Shown here piece by piece: positions 1 to 8,553 of a stretch of DNA of 9,294 nucleotides. The notes under the pieces are model-generated. The model searched no databases and was not told the origin of the DNA. It saw only the letters and a program-made list of their open reading frames with translations. The translations under genes and the position numbers were made by a program. Positions within the stretch are counted from its first letter, which is position 1; each line of letters begins with the position of its first letter. This DNA is from a virus (lineage: Duplodnaviria; Heunggongvirae; Uroviricota; Caudoviricetes): the IMG/VR virus record IMGVR_UViG_2531839179_000014. One strand, given 5' to 3'.

Positions 1-875
1 ATGGCGAGTAAACCGGCTGATAAATGACCCTGAACTTCGGGTTCTCCTTCAGCCAGCTCTGTGTTTCCCGGCTTTTGTGGATAATGTAGTTGTCCACGAT
101 CAGCGTGATGGTTTTCGCCCGACGGTATGTCGCTTTAAGCCGCTTCAGCAGGCTGATGAACAGCGCCGAACTTTTGCTGTTGCCGCCCACATAGCTGACT
201 TTACCTGTCCCGCTGTGCAGCGCTCCGGCCAGATAATATTTTTCATTCTGTCCCGGCGTGACCACCCGTTTTTGCTGTCCGCGCAGTTGCCAGTCCGCAC
301 CGATTTTGGGATGAAGATGGATATCCACTTCATCTTCATAAATGACCGGATGCTCTGCGCTGCATTCGTCCAGTGCTTTATGGATTGCTGCCATCTTTTC
401 ATCTTTATGCGGGTCACGGATACGCAGAGTTGGCGCAGCCCTTCGCCACACAATCCCCGCAGACGGCAACCAGCGGCGAACGGTTCCGGCATTTAACTGG
501 CAACCGGTTATCTCATTGATTTTTATTGCCAGCAGTTCTGTACTCCAGCGTGAACGCTGGTAGCCAAAGTCGCCGGGAGAATGTTTTTACCAGCTCACGT
601 AACAGTGTGCAGATATGCTCAAACGGCCAGCGACGGGCACGCCCGGCAGGTAATGATTTCAGTCCCTCAACACCCGACTGCGTGAACCAGTTAATCCAGC
701 GTCCAACAGAGGAACGGGCGCAGCAGAGCGTTCTGGCAACGTCGCTGACACGGTCGCCCCGGTGCAGCATCAGCATGGCAGTCAGTCTGCGGGCATAATT
801 TTTATCATGTGTTTTATGGATGGCTTTCTGCATCAGGCGTCGTTCGTCACGGGAAATTGGTGCTATGATCGGCAT
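1..875 (-). pseudogene. IS630-family DDE transposase, N-terminal HTH part (513-875) and catalytic part (1-586) in different frames
   Basis: Minus-strand translation of 1-586 gives ...RWSTELLAIKINEITGCQLNAGTVRRWL...VIYEDEVDIHLHPKIGADWQLRGQQKRVVTPGQNEKYYLAGALHSGTGKVSYV...TLIVDNYIIHKSRETQSWLKENPKFRVIYQPVYSPW, the characteristic IS630/Tc1 catalytic core. The N-terminal ORF 513-875 (HTH RVSDVARTLCCARSSVGRWINWF) ends in a different frame; frames switch at the T5 run at 584-588. The listed ORF 145-492(-) is an out-of-frame artefact. Confidence 0.75.
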
Positions 876-1231: not shown

Positions 1232-2127
1232 ACAGCGTATTTTGCACAGGAGTCGCTGAAAAATACGCGTTAATCGAACAATGGCGACAACAATTTCCCA
1301 TTGAAGCGATGTGTCAGGTATTTGGTGTATCCAGGAGCGGTTATTACAACTGGGTACAGCATGAACCCTCAGACAGAAAACAAAGTGATGAGCGGCTAAA
1401 ACTGGAGATTAAGGTGGCACATATCCGCACTCGCGAAACATATGGAACCCGGCGGCTCCAGACGGAGCTGGCAGAGAATGGCATCATCGTTGGTCGTGAC
1501 CGACTGGCACGTCTTCGTAAGGAGCTAAGGCTACGCTGTAAGCAGAAACGCAAGTTCAGAGCGACTACGAACCCGAACCACAATCTGCCAGTTGCGCCAA
1601 ATCTGTTGAACCAGACGTTCGCTCCTACAGCACCAAATCAGGTCTGGGTGGCGGACCTGACGTATGTTGCCACACAGGAGGGATGGTTGTACCTCGCTGG
1701 CATCAAAGATGTTTATACGTGCGAAATTGTCGGCTACGCCATGGGAGAGCGCATGACAAAAGAGCTGACAGGTAAAGCCCTGTTTATGGCGCTCAGGAGC
1801 CAGCGCCCACCTGCCGGGCTAATCCACCACTCTGATCGAGGTTCACAGTACTGCGCATACGATTACCGGGTCATACAGGAGCAGTTTGGTCTGAAAACAT
1901 CAATGTCGCGTAAAGGTAACTGTTACGACAACGCTCCGATGGAAAGCTTCTGGGGAACGCTGAAAAATGAGAGCCTGAGCCACTATCGTTTTAATAACCG
2001 GGATGAAGCCATCTCAGTAATACGGGAATACATTGAGATTTTCTACAATCGTCAGCGTCGTCACTCTCGTCTGGGGAATATCTCCCCGGCAGCCTTCAGG
2101 GAAAAATATCATCAGATGGCTGCTTAA
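1232..2127 (+). pseudogene. IS3-family OrfB (DDE integrase-core transposase), 5'-truncated by the IS30 insertion
   Basis: Reading frame is open from the IS30 stop through ORF 1309-2127. Motifs WVADLTYV, HSDRGSQY and MSRKGNCYDNAPMESFWGTLKNE (DDE catalytic residues) and a C-terminal YNRQRRHSRLG are present. No orfA upstream. Confidence 0.85.
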
Positions 2128-2170
2128 AAAAAGAACAAATGGTAGTGTCCGCTATTGCCAGTACACCTCA
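1232..2170 (+). mobile_element. IS3-family element, 3' portion only (orfA and the orfA/orfB frameshift window are missing); right end approximate
   Basis: Begins immediately after the IS30 right terminus. OrfB stops at 2127; a candidate terminus ...CCAGTACACCTCA ends near 2170 (IS3-family ends are TG...CA). The arrangement resembles the IS911-interrupted-by-IS30 configuration known in E. coli K-12, but identity to IS911 is not verified. Confidence 0.6.
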
Positions 2171-2303
2171 TTTCGATATCCGGGACGCCAATCCCGACGC
2201 CAGATTTTGCTGGCGCGTGAGGAATATAGCCCCGGATTAACGTTGTCGTCAACAGCCACTACAGGCTAAACTAACAATATTCCCCAACAACGAAGGATTT
2301 AAC

Positions 2304-3391: not shown

Positions 3392-3566
3392 TTTGTTCTT
3401 CCTCTTCGTCTTTTATTTCGTGATATGAGTAATTGCAGTAGTTAAAGAAAATATCTTTTGCTTCGTCATGTATTTCATCAGGCGTCGCATCATCATCCAC
3501 TTCGAATTCATCCTCGAAATCTCCACCGGCTATTCCCGTTTCAATAATAATTTTGAACTTTCGCAT
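3384..3566 (-). CDS. 60-aa highly acidic protein MRKFKIIIETGIAGGDFEDEFEVDDDATPDEIHDEAKDIFFNYCNYSYHEIKDEEEEQNG
   Basis: Part of listed ORF 3384-3602. I place the start at the internal ATG (3566) because the upstream 36 nt run into the IS10-like terminal repeat. About one third of residues are D/E. First gene of a four-gene coupled series. Confidence 0.55.
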   Translation of the reverse strand: MRKFKIIIETGIAGGDFEDEFEVDDDATPDEIHDEAKDIFFNYCNYSYHEIKDEEEEQNG

Positions 3567-3577
3567 TTCACTACCGC

Positions 3578-3587
3578 CCTTTCGGGC
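3578..3587. repeat. Left copy of the direct repeat CCTTTCGGGC flanking the IS10-like element (target-site duplication)
   Basis: The identical 10-mer occurs at 4890-4899 immediately outside the other terminus. IS10-group elements make 9-bp duplications. Confidence 0.75.
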
Positions 3588-4889
3588 CTGAGGGATCCCC
3601 ACAAAATTACTGCTAATAAACCAACACCATATTTCGGTAGGTTCTGGACAGATGGTTTAGAACTGTGCTCAGTACTGTTCGTCTTAAAATAAGTGGCGAG
3701 TGTCGAAGAACATTCTTCGCTAACGTCAGATATGAGATAACCCGCCGGGATTTAATGCTGTTAGCCTGATATTTCAGGTGTAACCCTTTATTTTCAGCGT
3801 GATAACCGAGTAACCACATTACGATAGTGCTCAACGTTGCCAGCAGACTCAGAACCAGAATTCTTCCTGTTGAACGACTTTTGCTGGCCCGAAGACCAAA
3901 TCCGAAGCGCCCGTTCTTTTCATCACGAAAGTTTTGCTCTATCTGCATTCGCCGACTGTATAACTTGATGATTTCTCGCGCTCTGAAGTCATTTGTACTG
4001 CTGAAGATCAACCAGGCTTCTTTTGCTGATTTGCTCTGTTCTTTGTCTGTTTTGTTTAAACCACTCTGACCTTTCGAACGTTTCTTTTTTCGCCCTTTTG
4101 CCGATTTCTTATAGGTGTAAAAATGCCCCCGGATGCTTTTTTTCCTTTCTTTAACCAGCCTTCCAGCCCCCATATATTCCGGTGTTTTACATTCAGGGCT
4201 ATCCGACACTTTTTAACCATCTTTCAGGCGCGTTATCGAGGCAATACTGAACGTTATTTCTGATCCGACCAATAAAATCCCAGCCCAGAGAAGTAATATG
4301 GTGAAACCATGCGCTCTGAAATCCAGCATCCGTGACAATAATAACCCTGGCATCGGGGGGCAGGGATTGAGCAAGGGAATCAAGGAAATCATGTTGTATC
4401 AATGGATTATTTTGTTTTTCAGAAGGAACAACCTTACTCAATAACGGAATGGAACGCCCGTCACACAGAAGGCTGGCACGAAGAACATGATGCTCCTGGG
4501 AGGGATAGCCACTCCAGTCTACGGCTATTACACATAAAGATAACTGCCGTGTCAGCATTGAAGTGATATTCCTGAAAATCATTGGAATATCGCGATGGAG
4601 CGCCTCATTACCCATGAGGCGATCAATACGTTTGCTCTTATTCTTAACTTGTGCATTACCCGGCAAAAAACGTCCGATACTGGTCAGCGTCAGAGATGCT
4701 CCGTTGATTAACACCACTGTGGCATCCATCAGGGCATTTTGTCGGTACTGATGAAATGGTGCTAAGGCATCCCGGAAGAAATTCTGACATACTTTATGAA
4801 CAGGCATAGCAGTGATCTCATTGAATTGTTGGCACAAATCAGTAGATCACATAATGCTATGTCTGTCTCGTTTTCTGGGAATTCCTCAG
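3588..4889 (-). mobile_element. IS10-like insertion sequence (IS4 family), ~1.3 kb, apparently complete
   Basis: Left end CTGAGGGATCCCCACAAAATTACTG (3588-3612) resembles the IS10 inside end as recalled; right end read on minus from 4889 is CTGAGGAATTCCCAGAAAACGAGAC. The two ends match at 17 of 22 positions. GATC sites sit in the left terminus (3594-3597) and near the transposase start (4814-4817, 4845-4848). Confidence 0.85.
3613..4837 (-). pseudogene. IS10-like transposase, split by a frameshift near the A5/T5 run at 4210-4214
   Basis: N-part (ORF 4199-4837) has KRIDRLMGNEALH, IAVDWSGY, VLRASLLCDGRSIP, VIIVTDAGFQSAWF, LGW. C-part (ORF 3613-4209) has the IS4-family YREK signature YSRRMQIEQNFRDEK. 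Both are collinear with IS10 transposase as recalled. The start may be TTG at 4837 or ATG at 4807. Confidence 0.8.
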
Positions 4890-5822: not shown

Positions 5823-6569
5823 CTACTTAACAACCCTCGAATGGCTAACATCCGGACGCCAGCTCTCCCAGTTAAAATTCACCCAGCGCCCGCCGTTCAT
5901 GACCATGCGATCCATCACCCGCTCGCCGAGCAATGTTTTCATCACCTCATAGTTCAGGTTTGTCAGCATCCCCACGCTGCGCATCGACGCTGTCCGGCGA
6001 TCAACAATCTGGTGCAGCACCACCTGCTCGTTTTTCGTCTCGCGCTGAATGCCAATTTCATCAAGAACCAGCAGATCCACTTCGCACAGCTCCCGCAAAA
6101 ATTTTTCGCCTGACTGCCCGTCGTCATAGCTGGCGTGCAGGGCGCTCATAACATCAGCCACGGTAACCACAATCACTGTCTGACCGTCTTTCAGCAGGCG
6201 ATTCCCGATAGCTGCCGCTAAGTGATTCTTCCCGGTACCAGGTTTTCCGCTGAACGCAAAATTTGTACACCCGGTCATCAGTTCATCGGCGATGGATTTC
6301 GCCTGGCTTAACGCGTATCGCTGGCCGTCGTTCTGCACCTGGTAATTCGCAAACGAGCATTTACGGTGCAACGGCTGGATGCCTGAGCGATTCAGAATTT
6401 TTTCCACCCGCAACTGGCGATTCAGGCGGTTGATCTCCTCGCTACGTTTCTGGCCTTCAGCAAGTTGCCACTCGCGCCACTCCGCTACCGTTCTGAATGG
6501 GGCGGTTACATGTGGCGGGGTCAGTCGGCGGATGCGTTCCAGAACGCCGCCTGTCGCAATATTTTTCAT
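5823..6569 (-). CDS. DnaC/IstB-like AAA+ helicase loader (phage replication protein)
   Basis: Walker A GKPGTGKNHLAAAIG and Walker B LLVLDEIG are present. Sits immediately downstream of the O-like gene, as in lambdoid and Rac-type replication modules. Confidence 0.85.
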   Translation of the reverse strand: MKNIATGGVLERIRRLTPPHVTAPFRTVAEWREWQLAEGQKRSEEINRLNRQLRVEKILNRSGIQPLHRKCSFANYQVQNDGQRYALSQAKSIADELMTGCTNFAFSGKPGTGKNHLAAAIGNRLLKDGQTVIVVTVADVMSALHASYDDGQSGEKFLRELCEVDLLVLDEIGIQRETKNEQVVLHQIVDRRTASMRSVGMLTNLNYEVMKTLLGERVMDRMVMNGGRWVNFNWESWRPDVSHSRVVK

Positions 6570-6575
6570 GGTCCG

Positions 6576-7359
6576 TTACCCCCTGAAGCCTGGCGGGATC
6601 GCACTGTCCGGCAACGAGACGGTGTTAACCTGTCGGAGCAACGTCTCAGGCCGAACACCTTTCGGCGCGAACAGGCCCTGGTATTCATTGGCGATGCTGT
6701 GTCGAATCACCTGCTCAGGTGTAAAACCCTGCTGACGGAATTTTTCCAGTTCCCGTATCGCCCCGTTAGCGCCCTGCTCCGTTCGAATCGGTTTTCGCAA
6801 TGCCTGTCTGAACCGGACCCACTCATGCCAGAGTGTTTCCGGCAACCAATCGGGCAGCTCAATAGCCTCCGGCTCGAATTTTTTAGACGCTCGTTTTTGG
6901 CGAGGGGGATTTAGGGGGAGATCTGTATTTAGATCTTCCTCTTCCTCTGGTAACGCTTTTTGATCCGTTTGTGTAACGCTGGCAGCGTTACCTTTTCGTT
7001 TCAGTTCGCGTATTTTTGTTACTCGCTCGTTTGTAACCGCCCGTTTTTTTAGAGCTTTTTCCGTTATGACGTTCAAAGTTAGGTAGAGAAAGCCCACCGT
7101 CATTTTCGACCAGCCATCCAACCTGAATTAACGCATCAGCAAAACCAGACATAAAAGTGATGCGATCTATTGCACTTTTTGTAACGCCGCGAGCGTTACA
7201 ATCTGCATTACCGTCTATCATTTGTTGATCCGCCCATGCCCAGAAGCGAATAACCTTCCCTAATGCGGCATCTGGATCAATATTCAGAATCTCAGCAAGC
7301 CTGAATATTTCCGGCTTATCCGGCGTAATAACCTCGAGCTTTATCCAGTTTGAAGCCAT
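6576..7359 (-). CDS. Replication initiator/replisome organizer (lambda O-like, YdaU-like), interrupted by a frameshift at the T7/A7 run at 7044-7050
   Basis: N-part ORF 6988-7359 (MASNWIKLEVITPDKPEIFRLAEIL...LPNFERHNGKSSKK) and C-part ORF 6576-7121 (...RAVTNERVTKIRELKRKG...LPDWLPETLWHEWVRFRQALRKP...) overlap at 6988-7121 in different frames. Removing one A from the A7 run fuses them into ~260 aa. Position is between the YdaT-like and DnaC-like genes. Confidence 0.6.
6972..6992. repeat. 21-bp palindrome, copy 3 (GTAACGCT-ggc-AGCGTTAC), inside the O-like coding region
   Basis: Perfect 8-bp arms. It is one of three related palindromes in this region. Confidence 0.7.
7180..7200. repeat. 21-bp palindrome, copy 2 (TGTAACGC-cgcga-GCGTTACA), inside the O-like coding region
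   Basis: Perfect 8-bp arms; differs at one base from copy 1. Confidence 0.7.
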
Positions 7360-7371
7360 TTGTTTTCACCT

Positions 7372-7392
7372 TGTAACGCTCGCAGCGTTACA
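7372..7392. promoter_or_regulatory. 21-bp palindrome, copy 1 (TGTAACGCT-cgc-AGCGTTACA), in the intergenic region just upstream of the O-like start
   Basis: Perfect 9-bp arms. Lies between the YdaT-like stop (7447) and the O-like ATG (7359), overlapping the region just 5' of the O-like SD (AAGGTGA). Candidate operator. Confidence 0.55.
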
Positions 7393-7446
7393 TTTAACTG
7401 ATACCGAACAAAACAATCCGGCACGATTAATTTCAATCAATGCACT

Positions 7447-7858
7447 ACGACAGAATCGCCGGGCGACCCACCACCGCTGAAATGTGCTTTCCGGTAAACG
7501 GCCTGGACAGCATCATCATGCGCATCAATTGCCGTACTCAACGCTTCCTGCGCCGCCAGTAATGCACGGCGTTCCAGGGTATCGAAGATACAGAGTCGGT
7601 GACGCAGCTCACGCGGAAGAATTGCCAGAACCGCAGGGATCAGTTTCTGAATTTTTCCCTTTGCGCTTTCGTTTCACCTTTCAACCAACGGTGATAGATA
7701 TTCTGCTGATTGTTCCAGTCCTTGCCTGGTACCAGAGACAATTCGCCGCCCCCCTGCCGCAGATATTCTTCAGTAATTGCGTTAGCGACCCACGCCTGCC
7801 CTTTTTCGGCTGCCAGGGCTAACAGCACTGATTCGATGTGCTCATGCCTGATTTTCAT
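7447..7858 (-). CDS. YdaT-like protein (CII-like regulator or putative toxin family), interrupted by a frameshift at the T5/A5 run at 7652-7656
   Basis: ORF 7640-7858 (MKIRHEHIESVLLALAAEKGQAWVANAITEEYLRQGGGELSLVPGKDWNNQQNIYHRWLKGETKAQREK) continues in another frame as IQKLIPAVLAILPRELRHRLCIFDTLERRALLAAQEALSTAIDAHDDAVQAVYRKAHFSGGGSPGDSVVVH*, ending at 7447. One extra A would restore ~140 aa. Start overlaps the dicC-like stop. Confidence 0.6.
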
Positions 7859-8069
7859 GAATCACCTTCCCAGGTCGTTTTGCCTTACGATATTCGTCAT
7901 AAACTTTGGGGTCGTACTGAAGTTCCCCGCCAGATGCCTCTTGCAGGCGCATCGCGCGACCTTCAGGAACCAGTTCCCCCCATGCAGCAATGCTTGCCAG
8001 CCTAACTCCTGCGGCATTGGCAAGCTTTGTTTTGCTGCCAAAAAACGCTATAGCATCAATTTTCAACAT
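7842..8069 (-). CDS. dicC: Cro-type small DNA-binding protein, DicC/YdaS-like
   Basis: 75-aa ORF divergent from the DicA-like repressor, with strong SD AAGGAG 6 nt upstream. Its size and divergent position match DicC; assigning it to the YdaS/DicC-type Cro-like family is from recollection. Confidence 0.75.
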   Translation of the reverse strand: MLKIDAIAFFGSKTKLANAAGVRLASIAAWGELVPEGRAMRLQEASGGELQYDPKVYDEYRKAKRPGKVIHENQA

Positions 8070-8145
8070 ATCGAGCTCCTTAGATTTTCCTAAGAAAACC
8101 AGATCGTAGAGAAACCTAAGTCAAGAAAAATTAGAATTCCCTAAT
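8070..8145. promoter_or_regulatory. Divergent promoter/operator region between the dicC-like and dicA-like genes
   Basis: Two copies of a 15-bp motif: TTAGATTTTCCTAAG (8080-8094) and GTAGAGAAACCTAAG (8106-8120). A -10-like TAGAAT (8132-8137) lies 8 bp before the dicA-like ATG, which has no SD. Confidence 0.6.
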
Positions 8146-8553
8146 ATGAAAAACGAAACCTTCGGTGCTCGCCTCTTACATAGGCGTAAAAAATTAAAAC
8201 TGTCTCAGGCCGCATTAGGTAAGCTGGTCAAAGTGGCTCACGTAACAATTTCTCAATGGGAAAGAGATGAAACACAGCCGGCGGGGAAAAGATTATTCGC
8301 ACTGAGCCAAGCGCTTCAGTGCTCACCGACTTGGCTTCTTTTTGGGGATGAAGATAAACAACCAGGCGAACCGATCCCGGATAATCAGCCAGCCATTCTG
8401 ACAGAAGATCAAAAAGAGTTACTTCAACTGTTCGACGCACTGCCTGAGTCAGAGCAAAAGGCCCTGTTGTCAGAGATGCGTGCTCGAGTTGAAAATTTCA
8501 ACAAACTTTTTGAAGAACTACTCAAAGCTCGCAAAAGAAGCGCAAACAAATAA
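8146..8553 (+). CDS. dicA: DicA-like XRE-family HTH repressor (no C-terminal peptidase domain)
   Basis: 135 aa. N-terminal HTH LSQAALGKLVKVAHVTISQWERDETQP. Blocks LFALSQALQCSPTWLLFGDEDKQP, ALPESEQ and MRARVENFNKLFEELLKARKR match E. coli DicA as recalled. Confidence 0.8.
   Translation: MKNETFGARLLHRRKKLKLSQAALGKLVKVAHVTISQWERDETQPAGKRLFALSQALQCSPTWLLFGDEDKQPGEPIPDNQPAILTEDQKELLQLFDALPESEQKALLSEMRARVENFNKLFEELLKARKRSANK

What the first reader, a model, noticed from the sequence alone, without database searches (positions are those of the whole stretch)
6972..7392. Three copies of a 21-bp perfect palindrome spaced ~200 bp apart in and upstream of the replication-initiator gene
TGTAACGCT-N3-AGCGTTACA (and one-base variants) occurs at 7372-7392 just upstream of the O-like start and twice inside its coding sequence (7180-7200, 6972-6992). 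I found no other full copy in the window. Keeping long palindromes inside a coding sequence suggests selection at the DNA level, as for binding sites of a dimeric protein. Candidates are an origin or iteron-like element within the initiator gene (as ori-lambda lies within O), or sites for a CII-like regulator such as the adjacent YdaT-like protein.
Basis: partly seen in the sequence, partly recalled or inferred. Interest (0 to 1): 0.6.

Follow-up and report, generated by a model that had tools for sequence, protein, structure and literature searches.

The report
Phage replication origin inside initiator gene
The three palindromes are real and kept by selection on the DNA; they are most likely the sites where a widespread but unstudied prophage replication-initiator protein binds inside and just before its own gene, marking the phage's replication origin much as in phage lambda.

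Summary
TGTAACGCT-N3-AGCGTTACA occurs three times (6972, 7180, 7372), with none in 200 shuffles.

The window is a decayed Rac-like prophage. The gene at 6576-7359 (-) encodes a replication initiator with an uncharacterised winged-helix-like N-domain and a DnaT-like C-domain. It is not lambda O and not K-12 YdaU (DUF1376).

The palindromes are under DNA-level selection:
- All 82 close relatives keep them. The arms are nearly invariant and the spacers are hypervariable.
- Homologues from Enterobacterales to Planctomycetota keep GTAACGC-N5-GCGTTAC at the same two intragenic positions, against codon usage and in all three reading frames.
- Diverged subfamilies carry other palindromes (GTCACGC, GTAGACG, GTCCGC), and every copy has changed together.
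- A matching pair is present in 180 of 238 loci, against 0 of 238 shuffles.

The linker copy is followed by a class-specific half-site and a near-universal polypurine tract, (GAGAA)n, which is GAGGAA repeats in this window. This resembles ori-lambda, where iterons are followed by a purine-rich tract in the O linker.

Best reading (about 0.65): these are initiator-binding sites that form an origin embedded in the gene. The upstream copy is an enterobacterial addition and may be autoregulatory.

YdaT is excluded as the binding protein. Its known motif differs, and it is absent from most loci. An RNA hairpin is not supported.

No experiment has tested origin function, and the initiator gene is frameshifted in this window.

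The parts
6972..6992 (.). Palindrome copy 1 (linker copy). On the coding (minus) strand it reads GGTAACGCT-GCC-AGCGTTACA and encodes G-N-A-A-S-V-T in the inter-domain linker of the initiator (residues 123-129 of the intact protein).
   Evidence: Present at the equivalent position (+337 to +412) in nearly all homologues. Lies in a low-confidence, disordered part of the AF2 model.
7180..7200 (.). Palindrome copy 2 (N-domain copy). On the coding strand it reads TGTAACGCT-CGC-GGCGTTACA and encodes C-N-A-R-G-V-T in a surface loop (aa 47-60) between helices of the winged-helix-like N-domain.
   Evidence: Conserved at +148 to +160 across phyla, with GGT/AAC/AGC/GTT codons fixed against codon usage. 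The loop has low pLDDT.
7372..7392 (.). Palindrome copy 3 (upstream copy). It is a perfect palindrome at -33 to -13 from the initiator ATG, directly before the Shine-Dalgarno sequence. This copy is an addition specific to enterobacterial members and is a possible autoregulatory operator.
   Evidence: Present in all 82 close relatives but in only 11 of 57 class-A loci family-wide.
6949..6956 (-). Terminal half-site GCGTTACC (coding strand), 23 bp after the right arm of copy 1. It is translated in another frame as A-L-P.
   Evidence: GCG in all 27 Ala codons and TTA in 34 of 35 Leu codons across phyla. It changes with the palindrome class: GCGTGACC, GCGGACC, GCGTCTACC/GCGACTACC.
7205..7211 (-). 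Degenerate direct half-site GTAATGC (coding strand), 12 bp upstream of the left arm of copy 2. Together with copy 2 it gives a direct-direct-inverted array.
   Evidence: The corresponding 'GNA' is conserved in enterobacterial homologues.
6934..6948 (-). Polypurine tract AGAGGAAGAGGAAGA on the coding strand (GAGGAA repeats, encoding EEEE). It is the local form of the family-wide (GAGAA)n tract and a candidate unwinding or loading element.
   Evidence: Shows 6-nt length polymorphism in relatives. GAGAAGAGAAG occurs in 190 of 222 unique loci at median +385, against 0 of 235 upstream controls.
6576..7359 (-). Replication-initiator gene (PHROG 2509). It has a winged-helix-like N-domain, a linker and a DnaT-like C-terminal domain. 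In this window it is frameshifted by an extra base in the homopolymer at 7044-7051.
5823..6569 (-). ydaV, a DnaC/IstB-like AAA+ helicase-loader gene immediately downstream. It is the presumed partner of the initiator's C-terminal domain.

Best explanation
The palindromes are recognition sites for the N-terminal, winged-helix-like DNA-binding domain of the replication initiator encoded by the same gene. Each 7-9 bp arm would be contacted by one subunit of a dimer.

Together with flanking half-sites at 11-12 bp spacing, a terminal half-site and the adjacent polypurine tract, the linker copy forms the core of a phage replication origin embedded in the initiator gene. This is the same logic as ori-lambda inside gene O.

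The second copy lies about 200 bp upstream, in the part of the gene encoding a surface loop of the N-domain. It probably adds a cooperative or looping contact. The third copy, just before the ribosome-binding site, is confined to enterobacterial members and may additionally autoregulate the gene.

The DnaT-like C-terminal domain would then bring in DnaB through the neighbouring DnaC-like YdaV at DNA opened at or next to the polypurine tract.

Shown: DNA-level selection, concerted co-variation of all copies with the N-domain subfamily, and the anatomy.

Inferred: who binds, origin firing, looping, autoregulation and helicase recruitment.

In this particular window the initiator gene is frameshifted, so the element is probably a relic.
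For: 1. The copies are non-random: 3 copies against 0 in 200 shuffles.

2. 82 of 82 close relatives keep all three copies in register. Among 59 unique sequences, 9.5% of arm sites are variable, against 67% of spacer sites and 17.5% elsewhere. Spacer changes are often non-synonymous.

3. N-domain homologues from Enterobacterales, Pseudomonadales, Burkholderiales, Planctomycetota and an Acidobacteriota MAG keep GTAACGC-N5-GCGTTAC at about +150 and about +340 to +410.

4. Codon choice at the palindrome positions is fixed: GGT 36/37, AAC 36/36, AGC 27/27, GTT 34/37, GCG 27/27, TTA 34/35. Gene-wide frequencies are 0.15-0.64, in genomes of 43-68% GC. The residues themselves vary (G/C/S/R) while the nucleotides stay the same.

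5. The linker element is read in all three frames in different lineages.

6. Specificity classes exist: GTCACGC-N5-GCGTGAC, GTAGACG-N6-CGTCTAC and GTCCGC-N7-GCGGAC. In each class both full copies and the terminal half-site have changed together, and each class corresponds to a distinct N-domain subfamily.

7. A matching palindrome pair is found in 180 of 238 loci, against 0 of 238 dinucleotide shuffles and 2 of 232 upstream control regions.

8. A conserved (GAGAA)n tract follows the terminal half-site in every class.

9. Ori-lambda has the same layout: palindromic iterons followed by a purine-rich tract, inside the O linker.

11. The C-terminal domain is homologous to the DnaT C-terminal domain (PDB 2ru8, E = 3.3e-4; PF17948 in family members). 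A DnaC-like gene follows.

12. K-12 Rac YdaU has an unrelated N-domain (DUF1376) and carries its own, different repeat cluster at the equivalent linker position. This is as expected for initiator-plus-origin cassettes.
Against: - No binding or replication experiment exists for any member that I could find.
- Unlike lambda, the linker holds only one full palindrome plus half-sites, not four tandem iterons. The other full copies are 190-210 bp away, which is unusual for an origin core.
- The polypurine tract here is short (15 nt) and not markedly AT-rich (GC about 0.40-0.47).
- 59 of 242 loci gave no pair under my criteria.
- The sequences are phylogenetically related, so counts and p-values overstate independence.
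- Because the sites lie inside the N-domain gene, co-inheritance with it is trivial. Only the concerted change of the separate copies speaks for a common binding protein.
- No orphan copies, for example on satellites, were found that would show action in trans.
- The initiator in this window is frameshifted.
Confidence: 0.65

Rival explanations
1. The palindromes are operators or roadblocks through which the initiator, or another phage protein, only regulates expression of the initiator operon. The origin would lie elsewhere.
For: Copy 3 sits at -33 to -13 from the ATG, next to the Shine-Dalgarno sequence. By established knowledge, plasmid Rep proteins bind inverted repeats at their own promoters as dimers to autorepress. 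The sites are spaced about 200 bp apart rather than in a tight array.
Against: The family-wide copies are intragenic. The upstream copy is present in only 11 of 57 class-A loci. No sigma-70-like promoter is predicted in 6850-7500. The conserved half-site array and the class-independent (GAGAA)n tract have no role in a pure operator model. The layout parallels ori-lambda. Regulation and origin function are not mutually exclusive.
Confidence: 0.15
2. The palindromes act as hairpins in the mRNA (stability, translation control, RNase III sites) or in single-stranded DNA (priming signals), not as duplex binding sites.
For: Each copy folds into an 8-10 bp stem at -11.6 to -15.9 kcal/mol, z = -3 to -3.9. 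The A-to-C / T-to-G switch between classes A and A' preserves pairing. Copy 3 lies just 5' of the Shine-Dalgarno sequence.
Against: Arm sequence, not just pairing, is conserved across phyla. Of 167 mismatched arm positions, 125 cannot pair, and G-U-compatible changes are no commoner in the mRNA sense (23) than in the antisense (19). Separate copies and the unpaired terminal half-site change in concert with the class, which independent hairpins do not require. Direct half-site repeats occur at a helical period of 11-12 bp. The only terminator-like hit is on the antisense (+) strand at copy 1, and the number found is at the chance level.
Confidence: 0.07
3. The palindromes are binding sites for the adjacent CII-like regulator YdaT (or for the DicA/Cro-like repressors).
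For: ydaT lies directly upstream. YdaT is a DNA-binding tetramer that recognises inverted repeats (PMC11879457, PMC9986795).
Against: The experimentally determined YdaT sites are ATGATT-N6-AATCAA (Rac) and TTGATT-N6-AATCAA (CP-933P), which are unrelated to GTAACGC. The window's YdaT keeps the H-R-W recognition residues. YdaT-box-like sites exist elsewhere, at 7848-7865 and 7423-7440. YdaT homologues are found in only 10 of 53 loci, whereas the palindromes are in nearly all. Phages such as epsilon15, Raharianne and phiPSA1 have the palindromes with other upstream genes. No copy lies in the repressor/cro intergenic region.
Confidence: 0.02
4. The repeats are by-products of a repeated peptide motif (x-N-A-x-S/G-V-T) needed by the protein, or recombination hot spots marking module boundaries. 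They would not be binding sites.
For: Both coding copies are read in the same frame here and give similar heptapeptides. Copy 1 lies just before the point where C-terminal modules are exchanged.
Against: Residues vary while nucleotides are fixed (G/C/S/R all use NGT; S/G/C/R all use NGC). Synonymous choices are fixed against codon usage. The same DNA is read in three frames. One copy is non-coding. Both coding copies fall in low-confidence or disordered parts of the model. Module exchange would not produce class-specific concerted change.
Confidence: 0.03

Closest known systems
ori-lambda within gene O of phage lambda (and P22 gene 18 / other lambdoid O-type origins)
   Same: The cis sites have internal dyad symmetry and lie inside the initiator's own gene, in the part encoding the flexible linker between the DNA-binding N-domain and the loader-interacting C-domain. 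A purine-rich tract on the coding strand follows directly. The gene sits after a cII-type gene and before the helicase-loader gene.
   Different: The initiator N-domain is not detectably homologous to O (no Pfam hit, hhalign probability 0.3%). The linker holds one full palindrome plus half-sites instead of four tandem 18-bp iterons. Further full copies lie about 200 bp upstream in the N-domain-coding part and, in enterobacterial members, before the start codon. The tract is (GAGAA)n/(GAGGAA)n rather than an A-rich run. The C-domain is DnaT-like.
Iteron plasmid Rep systems (F RepE, R6K pi, pSC101 RepA; established knowledge, not tested here)
   Same: A winged-helix initiator recognises a short half-site that occurs both as direct repeats and as inverted repeats. 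In those plasmids the inverted repeat near the rep start serves autorepression by dimers, which would fit copy 3. Separated site clusters can interact by looping or handcuffing.
K-12 Rac prophage YdaU (DUF1376) and oriJ
   Same: Same gene slot (ydaT - initiator - ydaV). The C-terminal part is shared, starting at the GATCTAAA-ACAGATC...CCCCCTAAATCCCCC junction. The linker-coding region carries a cluster of short repeats: GATGTTCAAACA twice plus one inverted copy at L131:3505-3578. Rac is reported to have an active origin, oriJ (PMC3945230).
   Different: The N-domain is unrelated (PF07120 against no Pfam family; hhalign probability 0.2%) and the repeat sequence is unrelated. I could not verify where oriJ maps.
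E. coli DnaT (primosomal protein I), C-terminal domain
   Same: Residues 168-260 align with DnaT residues 92-179 (the 2ru8 construct and full-length 9zbt), with a near-identical C-terminal tail: VNTVS-PDS-IPPGFRG (E = 3.3e-4). PF17948 is found in family members. The epsilon15 record carries the same HHpred note.
   Different: DnaT has no sequence-specific N-domain and acts with PriA/PriB at forks, not at an origin. Other family members replace this domain with Phg_2220_C or unknown domains.

Membership tests
Lambda-type origin (ori inside the initiator gene) | The cis sites lie within the initiator gene, in the region encoding the inter-domain linker | tested here: met
   Copy 1, the terminal half-site and the purine tract fall at codons 123-145 of the intact gene, between the N-domain and the DnaT-like domain, in low-pLDDT sequence. 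The lambda layout was checked.
Lambda-type origin (ori inside the initiator gene) | Array of about four tandem 18-19 bp iterons at about 20-24 bp spacing | tested here: not met
   The linker has one full palindrome with a half-site 23 bp downstream. Other lineages have 1-3 extra half-sites at 11-12 bp. The other full copies are 192-208 bp away.
Lambda-type origin (ori inside the initiator gene) | Adjacent A+T-rich, purine-skewed tract that can unwind | tested here: inconclusive
   There is a 15-nt polypurine run here and runs of median 19-33 nt in the family. Local GC is 0.40-0.47 with a strong A-over-T skew on the coding strand. It is not markedly AT-rich, and unwinding was not tested.
Lambda-type origin (ori inside the initiator gene) | The initiator belongs to the lambda O family (Phage_rep_O) | tested here: not met
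   No Pfam family at E <= 0.01. hhalign of the N-domain profile against lambda O gives probability 0.3%.
Lambda-type origin (ori inside the initiator gene) | The initiator binds the repeats and the fragment supports initiator-dependent replication | not testable with these tools
   This needs EMSA or footprinting and an origin-cloning assay. Only co-variation evidence is available.
Iteron-plasmid Rep/operator systems | Winged-helix initiator domain | tested here: inconclusive
Iteron-plasmid Rep/operator systems | Inverted repeat overlapping the initiator promoter (autorepression) | tested here: inconclusive
   Copy 3 is at -33 to -13 from the ATG, but no sigma-70-like promoter is predicted in 6850-7500. 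The gene is probably read through from upstream.
YdaT / CII-like operator | Inverted repeat (A/T)TGATT-N6-AATCAA | tested here: not met
   The published motifs (PMC11879457, PMC9986795) do not resemble GTAACGC. YdaT-box-like sites lie elsewhere, at 7423-7440 and 7848-7865.
YdaU / DUF1376 initiators (K-12 Rac) | N-terminal DUF1376 domain (PF07120) | tested here: not met
   K-12 YdaU hits PF07120 (E = 2.7e-26) and the window protein does not. hhalign probability is 0.2%.
DnaT-like domain proteins (PF17948) | C-terminal DnaT DNA-binding domain | tested here: met
   phmmer against the PDB gives 2ru8 at E = 3.3e-4 and 9zbt at E = 9.5e-4 over residues 168-260. PF17948 is present in epsilon15 and many family members. 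There is no Pfam hit (E <= 0.01) for this particular protein.
Intrinsic terminator / structured RNA element | Stem-loop followed by a U-run on the transcribed strand, or covariation that preserves pairing rather than sequence | tested here: not met
   The only terminator-like hit is on the antisense (+) strand at copy 1, and the number found is at the chance level. There is no Rfam hit in the region. The arms are sequence-conserved and mismatches are mostly non-pairing.

The most novel reading that the evidence does not exclude
The near-universal, class-independent (GAGAA)n homopurine mirror repeat next to the class-specific sites may be a new kind of origin-opening element. Because it is transcribed as part of the initiator mRNA, it could form an unusually stable purine-RNA/pyrimidine-DNA R-loop, or H-DNA. 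That would expose single-stranded DNA on which the DnaT-like (or alternative) C-terminal domain assembles a primosome without PriA. On this reading the origin is transcription-coupled and uses restart-type loading, with the palindromes only anchoring the initiator. The distal intragenic palindrome would then gate transcription into the tract. Nothing here excludes this, and nothing beyond the sequence conservation and the DnaT homology supports it.
Probability: 0.15. Interest if true: 0.75.

Novelty: new variant of a known kind. Interest (0 to 1): 0.5.

Why it matters
This would assign an origin and a recognition code to a very large family of phage and prophage replication initiators that nobody has studied. 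The family has at least 6,794 protein clusters at 90% identity and its N-domain has no Pfam family. Members include epsilon15, SPN1S, Xanthomonas CP2, Xylella and Ralstonia phages, the EHEC-outbreak phage TL-2011b, and Rac-like prophages of E. coli and Shigella.

The natural specificity classes (GTAAC, GTCAC, GTAGAC, GTCCGC) provide a ready-made set of orthogonal initiator/origin pairs. They also give a direct test of how a winged-helix domain reads its site.

The conserved (GAGAA)n tract and the DnaT-like domain point to how these phages take over host helicase loading.

There are also practical consequences for annotation. The conserved 'GNAxSVT', 'ALP' and 'REEKRRE' peptide motifs of this family are by-products of DNA constraints and are not functional protein motifs.

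Tried and rejected
- **YdaT as the binding protein.** Rejected on the published motifs and on phyletic distribution.
- **RNA hairpin or terminator.** The stems fold trivially, but there is no wobble signature, no U-tract on the coding strand and no Rfam hit.
- **Repeated peptide motif.** Rejected on frame, codon and residue variation.
- **Homology to lambda O or to DUF1376.** None detected.
- **Single-sequence AF2.** Gave a useless N-domain model. The model built with an alignment was usable, but the Foldseek PDB search was not significant.
- **Search for orphan origin copies.** I looked for the half-site plus (GAGAA)n away from an N-domain gene, for example on satellites. All 117 evaluable hits sit behind an N-domain ORF.
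- **Plasmid search.** Only two records of 41-52 kb; the one examined (H72) carries phage-type genes.
- **Literature searches.** Searches for oriJ, ydaU, DnaT-like phage initiators and the epsilon15 origin found no description of this element. The whole-word 'oriJ' search returned only an author name.
- **The search for related loci with the N-domain alignment in viral contigs.** Returned only close relatives. Divergent classes had to be fetched with divergent queries.
- **Helical phasing between the distant copies.** I did not test this rigorously. The spacings vary (about 189-264 bp) with no obvious 10.5-bp rule.
Full report
**1. Observation**

A search for TGTAACGCTNNNAGCGTTACA with up to three mismatches finds exactly three matches. 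They are at 7372-7392 (perfect), 7180-7200 and 6972-6992 (one mismatch each). No match appeared in 200 dinucleotide-preserving shuffles. An independent repeat finder recovers the same three copies. At half-site level, GTAACGC/GCGTTAC with up to one mismatch occurs at 18 per kb in 6900-7400 and at 3.8 per kb elsewhere. An extra exact half-site lies at 6950-6956 and a degenerate one at 7205-7211.

**2. Context**

The window is a Rac-like lambdoid prophage region. It is 99.6% identical to E. coli FDAARGOS_943 over 6400-8200. The gene order on the minus strand is:
- cro-like gene (7842-8069);
- ydaT (about 7436-7858);
- the initiator (6576-7359);
- ydaV, DnaC/IstB-like (5823-6569);
- a DUF977 gene.

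A divergent HTH repressor lies at 8146-8553.

Compared with the closest relative, the window has two homopolymer indels. One adds a T at 7044-7051 and breaks the initiator gene. The other removes a T near 7651 and breaks ydaT. In the relative the initiator is an intact 260-residue protein. IS-type transposase genes elsewhere in the window fit a decaying prophage.

**3. The protein**

The protein has no Pfam family at E <= 0.01. It matches PHROG 2509, 'replication initiation protein', at E = 1.9e-87.

Residues 168-260 are homologous to the C-terminal domain of E. coli DnaT (PDB 2ru8, E = 3.3e-4). The C-terminal tail is nearly identical.

It is not the K-12 Rac YdaU type. That protein is DUF1376, and a profile comparison of the N-domains is negative, as is the comparison with lambda O.

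An AlphaFold model built on 80 homologues has mean pLDDT 78. It shows:
- an N-domain with helices 16-25, 29-46, 61-68 and 73-80 and a beta-hairpin at 84-91;
- a poorly ordered loop at 47-60;
- a long basic helix at 101-123;
- a disordered linker;
- a confident helical C-domain.

Copy 2 is encoded in the 47-60 loop. Copy 1 is encoded in the disordered linker. These are the places where a protein can best tolerate nucleotide-level constraints.

**4. Selection acts on the DNA**

All 82 close relatives (95-99% protein identity) keep all three copies in register, with spacings of 192 and 207 bp. Among 59 unique sequences, 9.5% of arm positions vary, against 67% of spacer positions and 17.5% of all other positions. 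Spacer changes alter the encoded residue freely.

A scan of one genome per species found N-domain homologues in Enterobacterales, Pseudomonadales, Burkholderiales, Xanthomonadales-like genomes, Planctomycetota and an Acidobacteriota MAG. Protein identity falls to 30-50%. Nearly all carry GTAACGC-N5-GCGTTAC at about +150 and again at +337 to +412.

In a codon alignment of 39 diverse genes, third-position information is near zero at most four-fold sites. It is 1.4-2.0 bits at the palindrome codons:
- GGT in 36 of 37 Gly codons;
- AAC in 36 of 36 Asn codons;
- AGC in 27 of 27 Ser codons;
- GTT in 34 of 37 Val codons.

These genomes range from 43 to 68% GC, and gene-wide frequencies of these codons are 0.29-0.64.

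Where the residue varies, it varies among G/C/S/R (NGT) or S/G/C/R (NGC), so the nucleotides are kept and the amino acid is not.

The invariant 'ALP' motif after copy 1 is GCG-TTA-CC. This is the same half-site read in another frame: GCG in all 27 Ala codons and TTA in 34 of 35 Leu codons.

The linker element as a whole is translated in all three frames in different lineages.

**5. A common binding protein that co-varies with the N-domain**

Diverged subfamilies carry different palindromes at equivalent places:
- GTCACGC-N5-GCGTGAC;
- GTAGACG-N6-CGTCTAC in Ralstonia phage Raharianne and relatives;
- GTCCGC-N7-GCGGAC in epsilon15, phiPSA1 and relatives, where the first copy is at +64;
- rarer forms, including GTCACA/TGTGAC and an everted arrangement.

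In each class, both full copies and the terminal half-site have changed together. Each class corresponds to a distinct N-domain consensus.

Across 238 loci, a matching pair of palindromes more than 60 bp apart is present in 180. The same test finds 0 of 238 in dinucleotide shuffles and 2 of 232 in upstream control regions.

Independent hairpins would not need to change in concert, and a host factor would not change with the phage protein. The simplest binding protein is therefore the N-domain itself. Half-site centres are 12-13 bp apart, as expected for a dimer on one face of the helix.

**6. Origin-like anatomy**

In the linker region, many lineages have one to three extra direct half-sites at 11-12 bp spacing before the full palindrome, and inverted half-sites after it.

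In every class the last half-site is followed directly by CAGAGAAGAGAAGAGAAGA, that is (GAGAA)n, or by (GAGGAA)n in the Rac-like enterobacterial group. Median purine runs are 19-33 nt. GAGAAGAGAAG is present in 190 of 222 unique loci at median +385 and in none of 235 upstream controls. In the window the tract is AGAGGAAGAGGAAGA at 6948-6934, and relatives show 6-nt length polymorphism there.

I fetched the annotated ori-lambda for comparison. It has four 18-bp iterons with internal dyad symmetry, followed by ACAAAAGAAAAAAGAAAAGA, all inside the O linker. The logic is the same: class-specific initiator sites followed by a purine-rich tract, inside the initiator gene, upstream of the loader gene.

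K-12 Rac YdaU has an unrelated N-domain but a shared C-terminal part. It carries its own repeat cluster (GATGTTCAAACA, two direct copies and one inverted) at the equivalent linker position. This is what one expects if the N-domain and the origin travel together as a cassette.

**7. Differences from lambda**

- The linker has only one full palindrome.
- A second full copy sits about 200 bp upstream inside the N-domain-coding sequence in the great majority of loci of the four main classes (at least two copies in 160 of 163).
- A third copy lies before the start codon in only 11 of 57 class-A loci, all among the Enterobacterales loci of the genome scan, including this window.
- I could not show helical phasing between the distant copies.
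- The tract is not strongly AT-rich.

These points keep 'origin' an inference. They also leave room for a regulatory role, especially for copy 3.

**8. Rivals**

YdaT is excluded as far as sequence evidence can go. Its footprinted sites are ATGATT-N6-AATCAA in Rac and TTGATT-N6-AATCAA in CP-933P. The window has its own YdaT-box-like sites at 7848-7865 and 7423-7440. YdaT homologues occur in only 10 of 53 loci. Phages with other upstream genes still have the palindromes.

The RNA-hairpin reading is weak. The stems fold, as any palindrome would. But the arm sequence is conserved rather than just the pairing. Of 167 arm mismatches, 125 cannot pair, and wobble-compatible ones show no strand bias. 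There is no U-tract on the coding strand and no Rfam family.

A repeated peptide motif is excluded by the frame and codon evidence.

**9. Novelty and literature**

I found no paper describing an origin, binding sites or biochemistry for this initiator family. The library is limited to open-access papers, and older work, for example reviews of phage replication modules, could not be searched.

It is present in cultured phages.

The principle, an origin embedded in the initiator gene and built from initiator-binding repeats, is well known. The particular anatomy appears to be undescribed. It combines an unrelated N-domain, a bipartite or tripartite set of dispersed palindromes, a class-independent (GAGAA)n tract and a DnaT-like effector domain. 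I therefore rate it a new variant of a known kind, of moderate interest.

**10. Verdict**

- DNA-level selection and protein-binding-site behaviour are well supported (about 0.9).
- Identity of the binding protein as the initiator's own N-domain is likely (about 0.8).
- Origin function is probable (about 0.65).
- The element in this window is probably a relic, because the initiator gene is frameshifted.

Noticed in passing
window 7044-7051 and about 7651: Two homopolymer indels relative to the 99.6% identical E. coli FDAARGOS_943 break the initiator gene (extra T) and ydaT (missing T). They are either real pseudogenisation in a decaying prophage or homopolymer sequencing errors.
   Followed up: partly
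window 7423-7440 and 7848-7865: Sites resembling the published YdaT box ((A/T)TGATT-N6-AATCAA). One overlaps the ydaT start codon, as in K-12 Rac. The other, TTGATTGAAATTAATCGT on the minus strand with 1 mismatch, lies at the ydaT stop, 31 bp before palindrome copy 3. The second could mean YdaT controls initiator expression. The count is not above chance for the whole window.
   Followed up: partly
L131 (E. coli K-12 Rac) 3505-3578: K-12 ydaU (DUF1376 type) has its own cluster of GATGTTCAAACA repeats, two direct and one inverted, in the linker-coding region, preceded by a purine-rich stretch. It is a candidate core of the Rac origin oriJ.
   Followed up: partly
window 6900-6938; L131 3608-3650: AGATCT-N6-AGATCT (two Dam GATC sites) followed by CCCCCTAAATCCCCC is shared with K-12 ydaU. 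It marks the point from which the two otherwise unrelated initiators become homologous, and is probably a module-exchange junction.
   Followed up: no
window 2127-2229 (-): Rfam hits to isrK (Hfq-binding sRNA) and to c4-a1b1 (targets of the C4 antisense RNA), both above their gathering scores.
   Followed up: no
window 513-875, 1309-2127 and 3613-4837: Insertion-sequence genes: an IS3-type HTH ORF and an integrase-core transposase ORF, plus a DDE_Tnp_1 transposase split into two ORFs. These indicate IS-mediated decay of the prophage, with a Shigella-like IS load.
   Followed up: no
L399 (IMG/VR) +350 and +161 from the initiator start: One family member has the class-A half-sites in everted order, CGTTACA-GA-TGTAACG, at both positions. 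This implies a different dimer geometry on the same half-site.
   Followed up: no
L097, L099 and proteins P0080, P0085, P0095, P0101: Klebsiella/Pantoea-type members have an 11-residue insertion in the N-domain loop (SNADSVT...KSNAS) and longer linkers with repeated NA tripeptides (xNA). The loop and linker appear to grow by adding binding-site units. This was checked at DNA level only for the full palindromes of L097 and L099.
   Followed up: partly
family-wide: The conserved N-domain plus origin linker is fused to at least three different C-terminal domains: DnaT-like PF17948, Phg_2220_C PF09524 and unassigned domains. It is followed by either DnaC-like or DnaB-like genes, or by neither. The helicase-recruiting part appears to be exchangeable.
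   Followed up: partly
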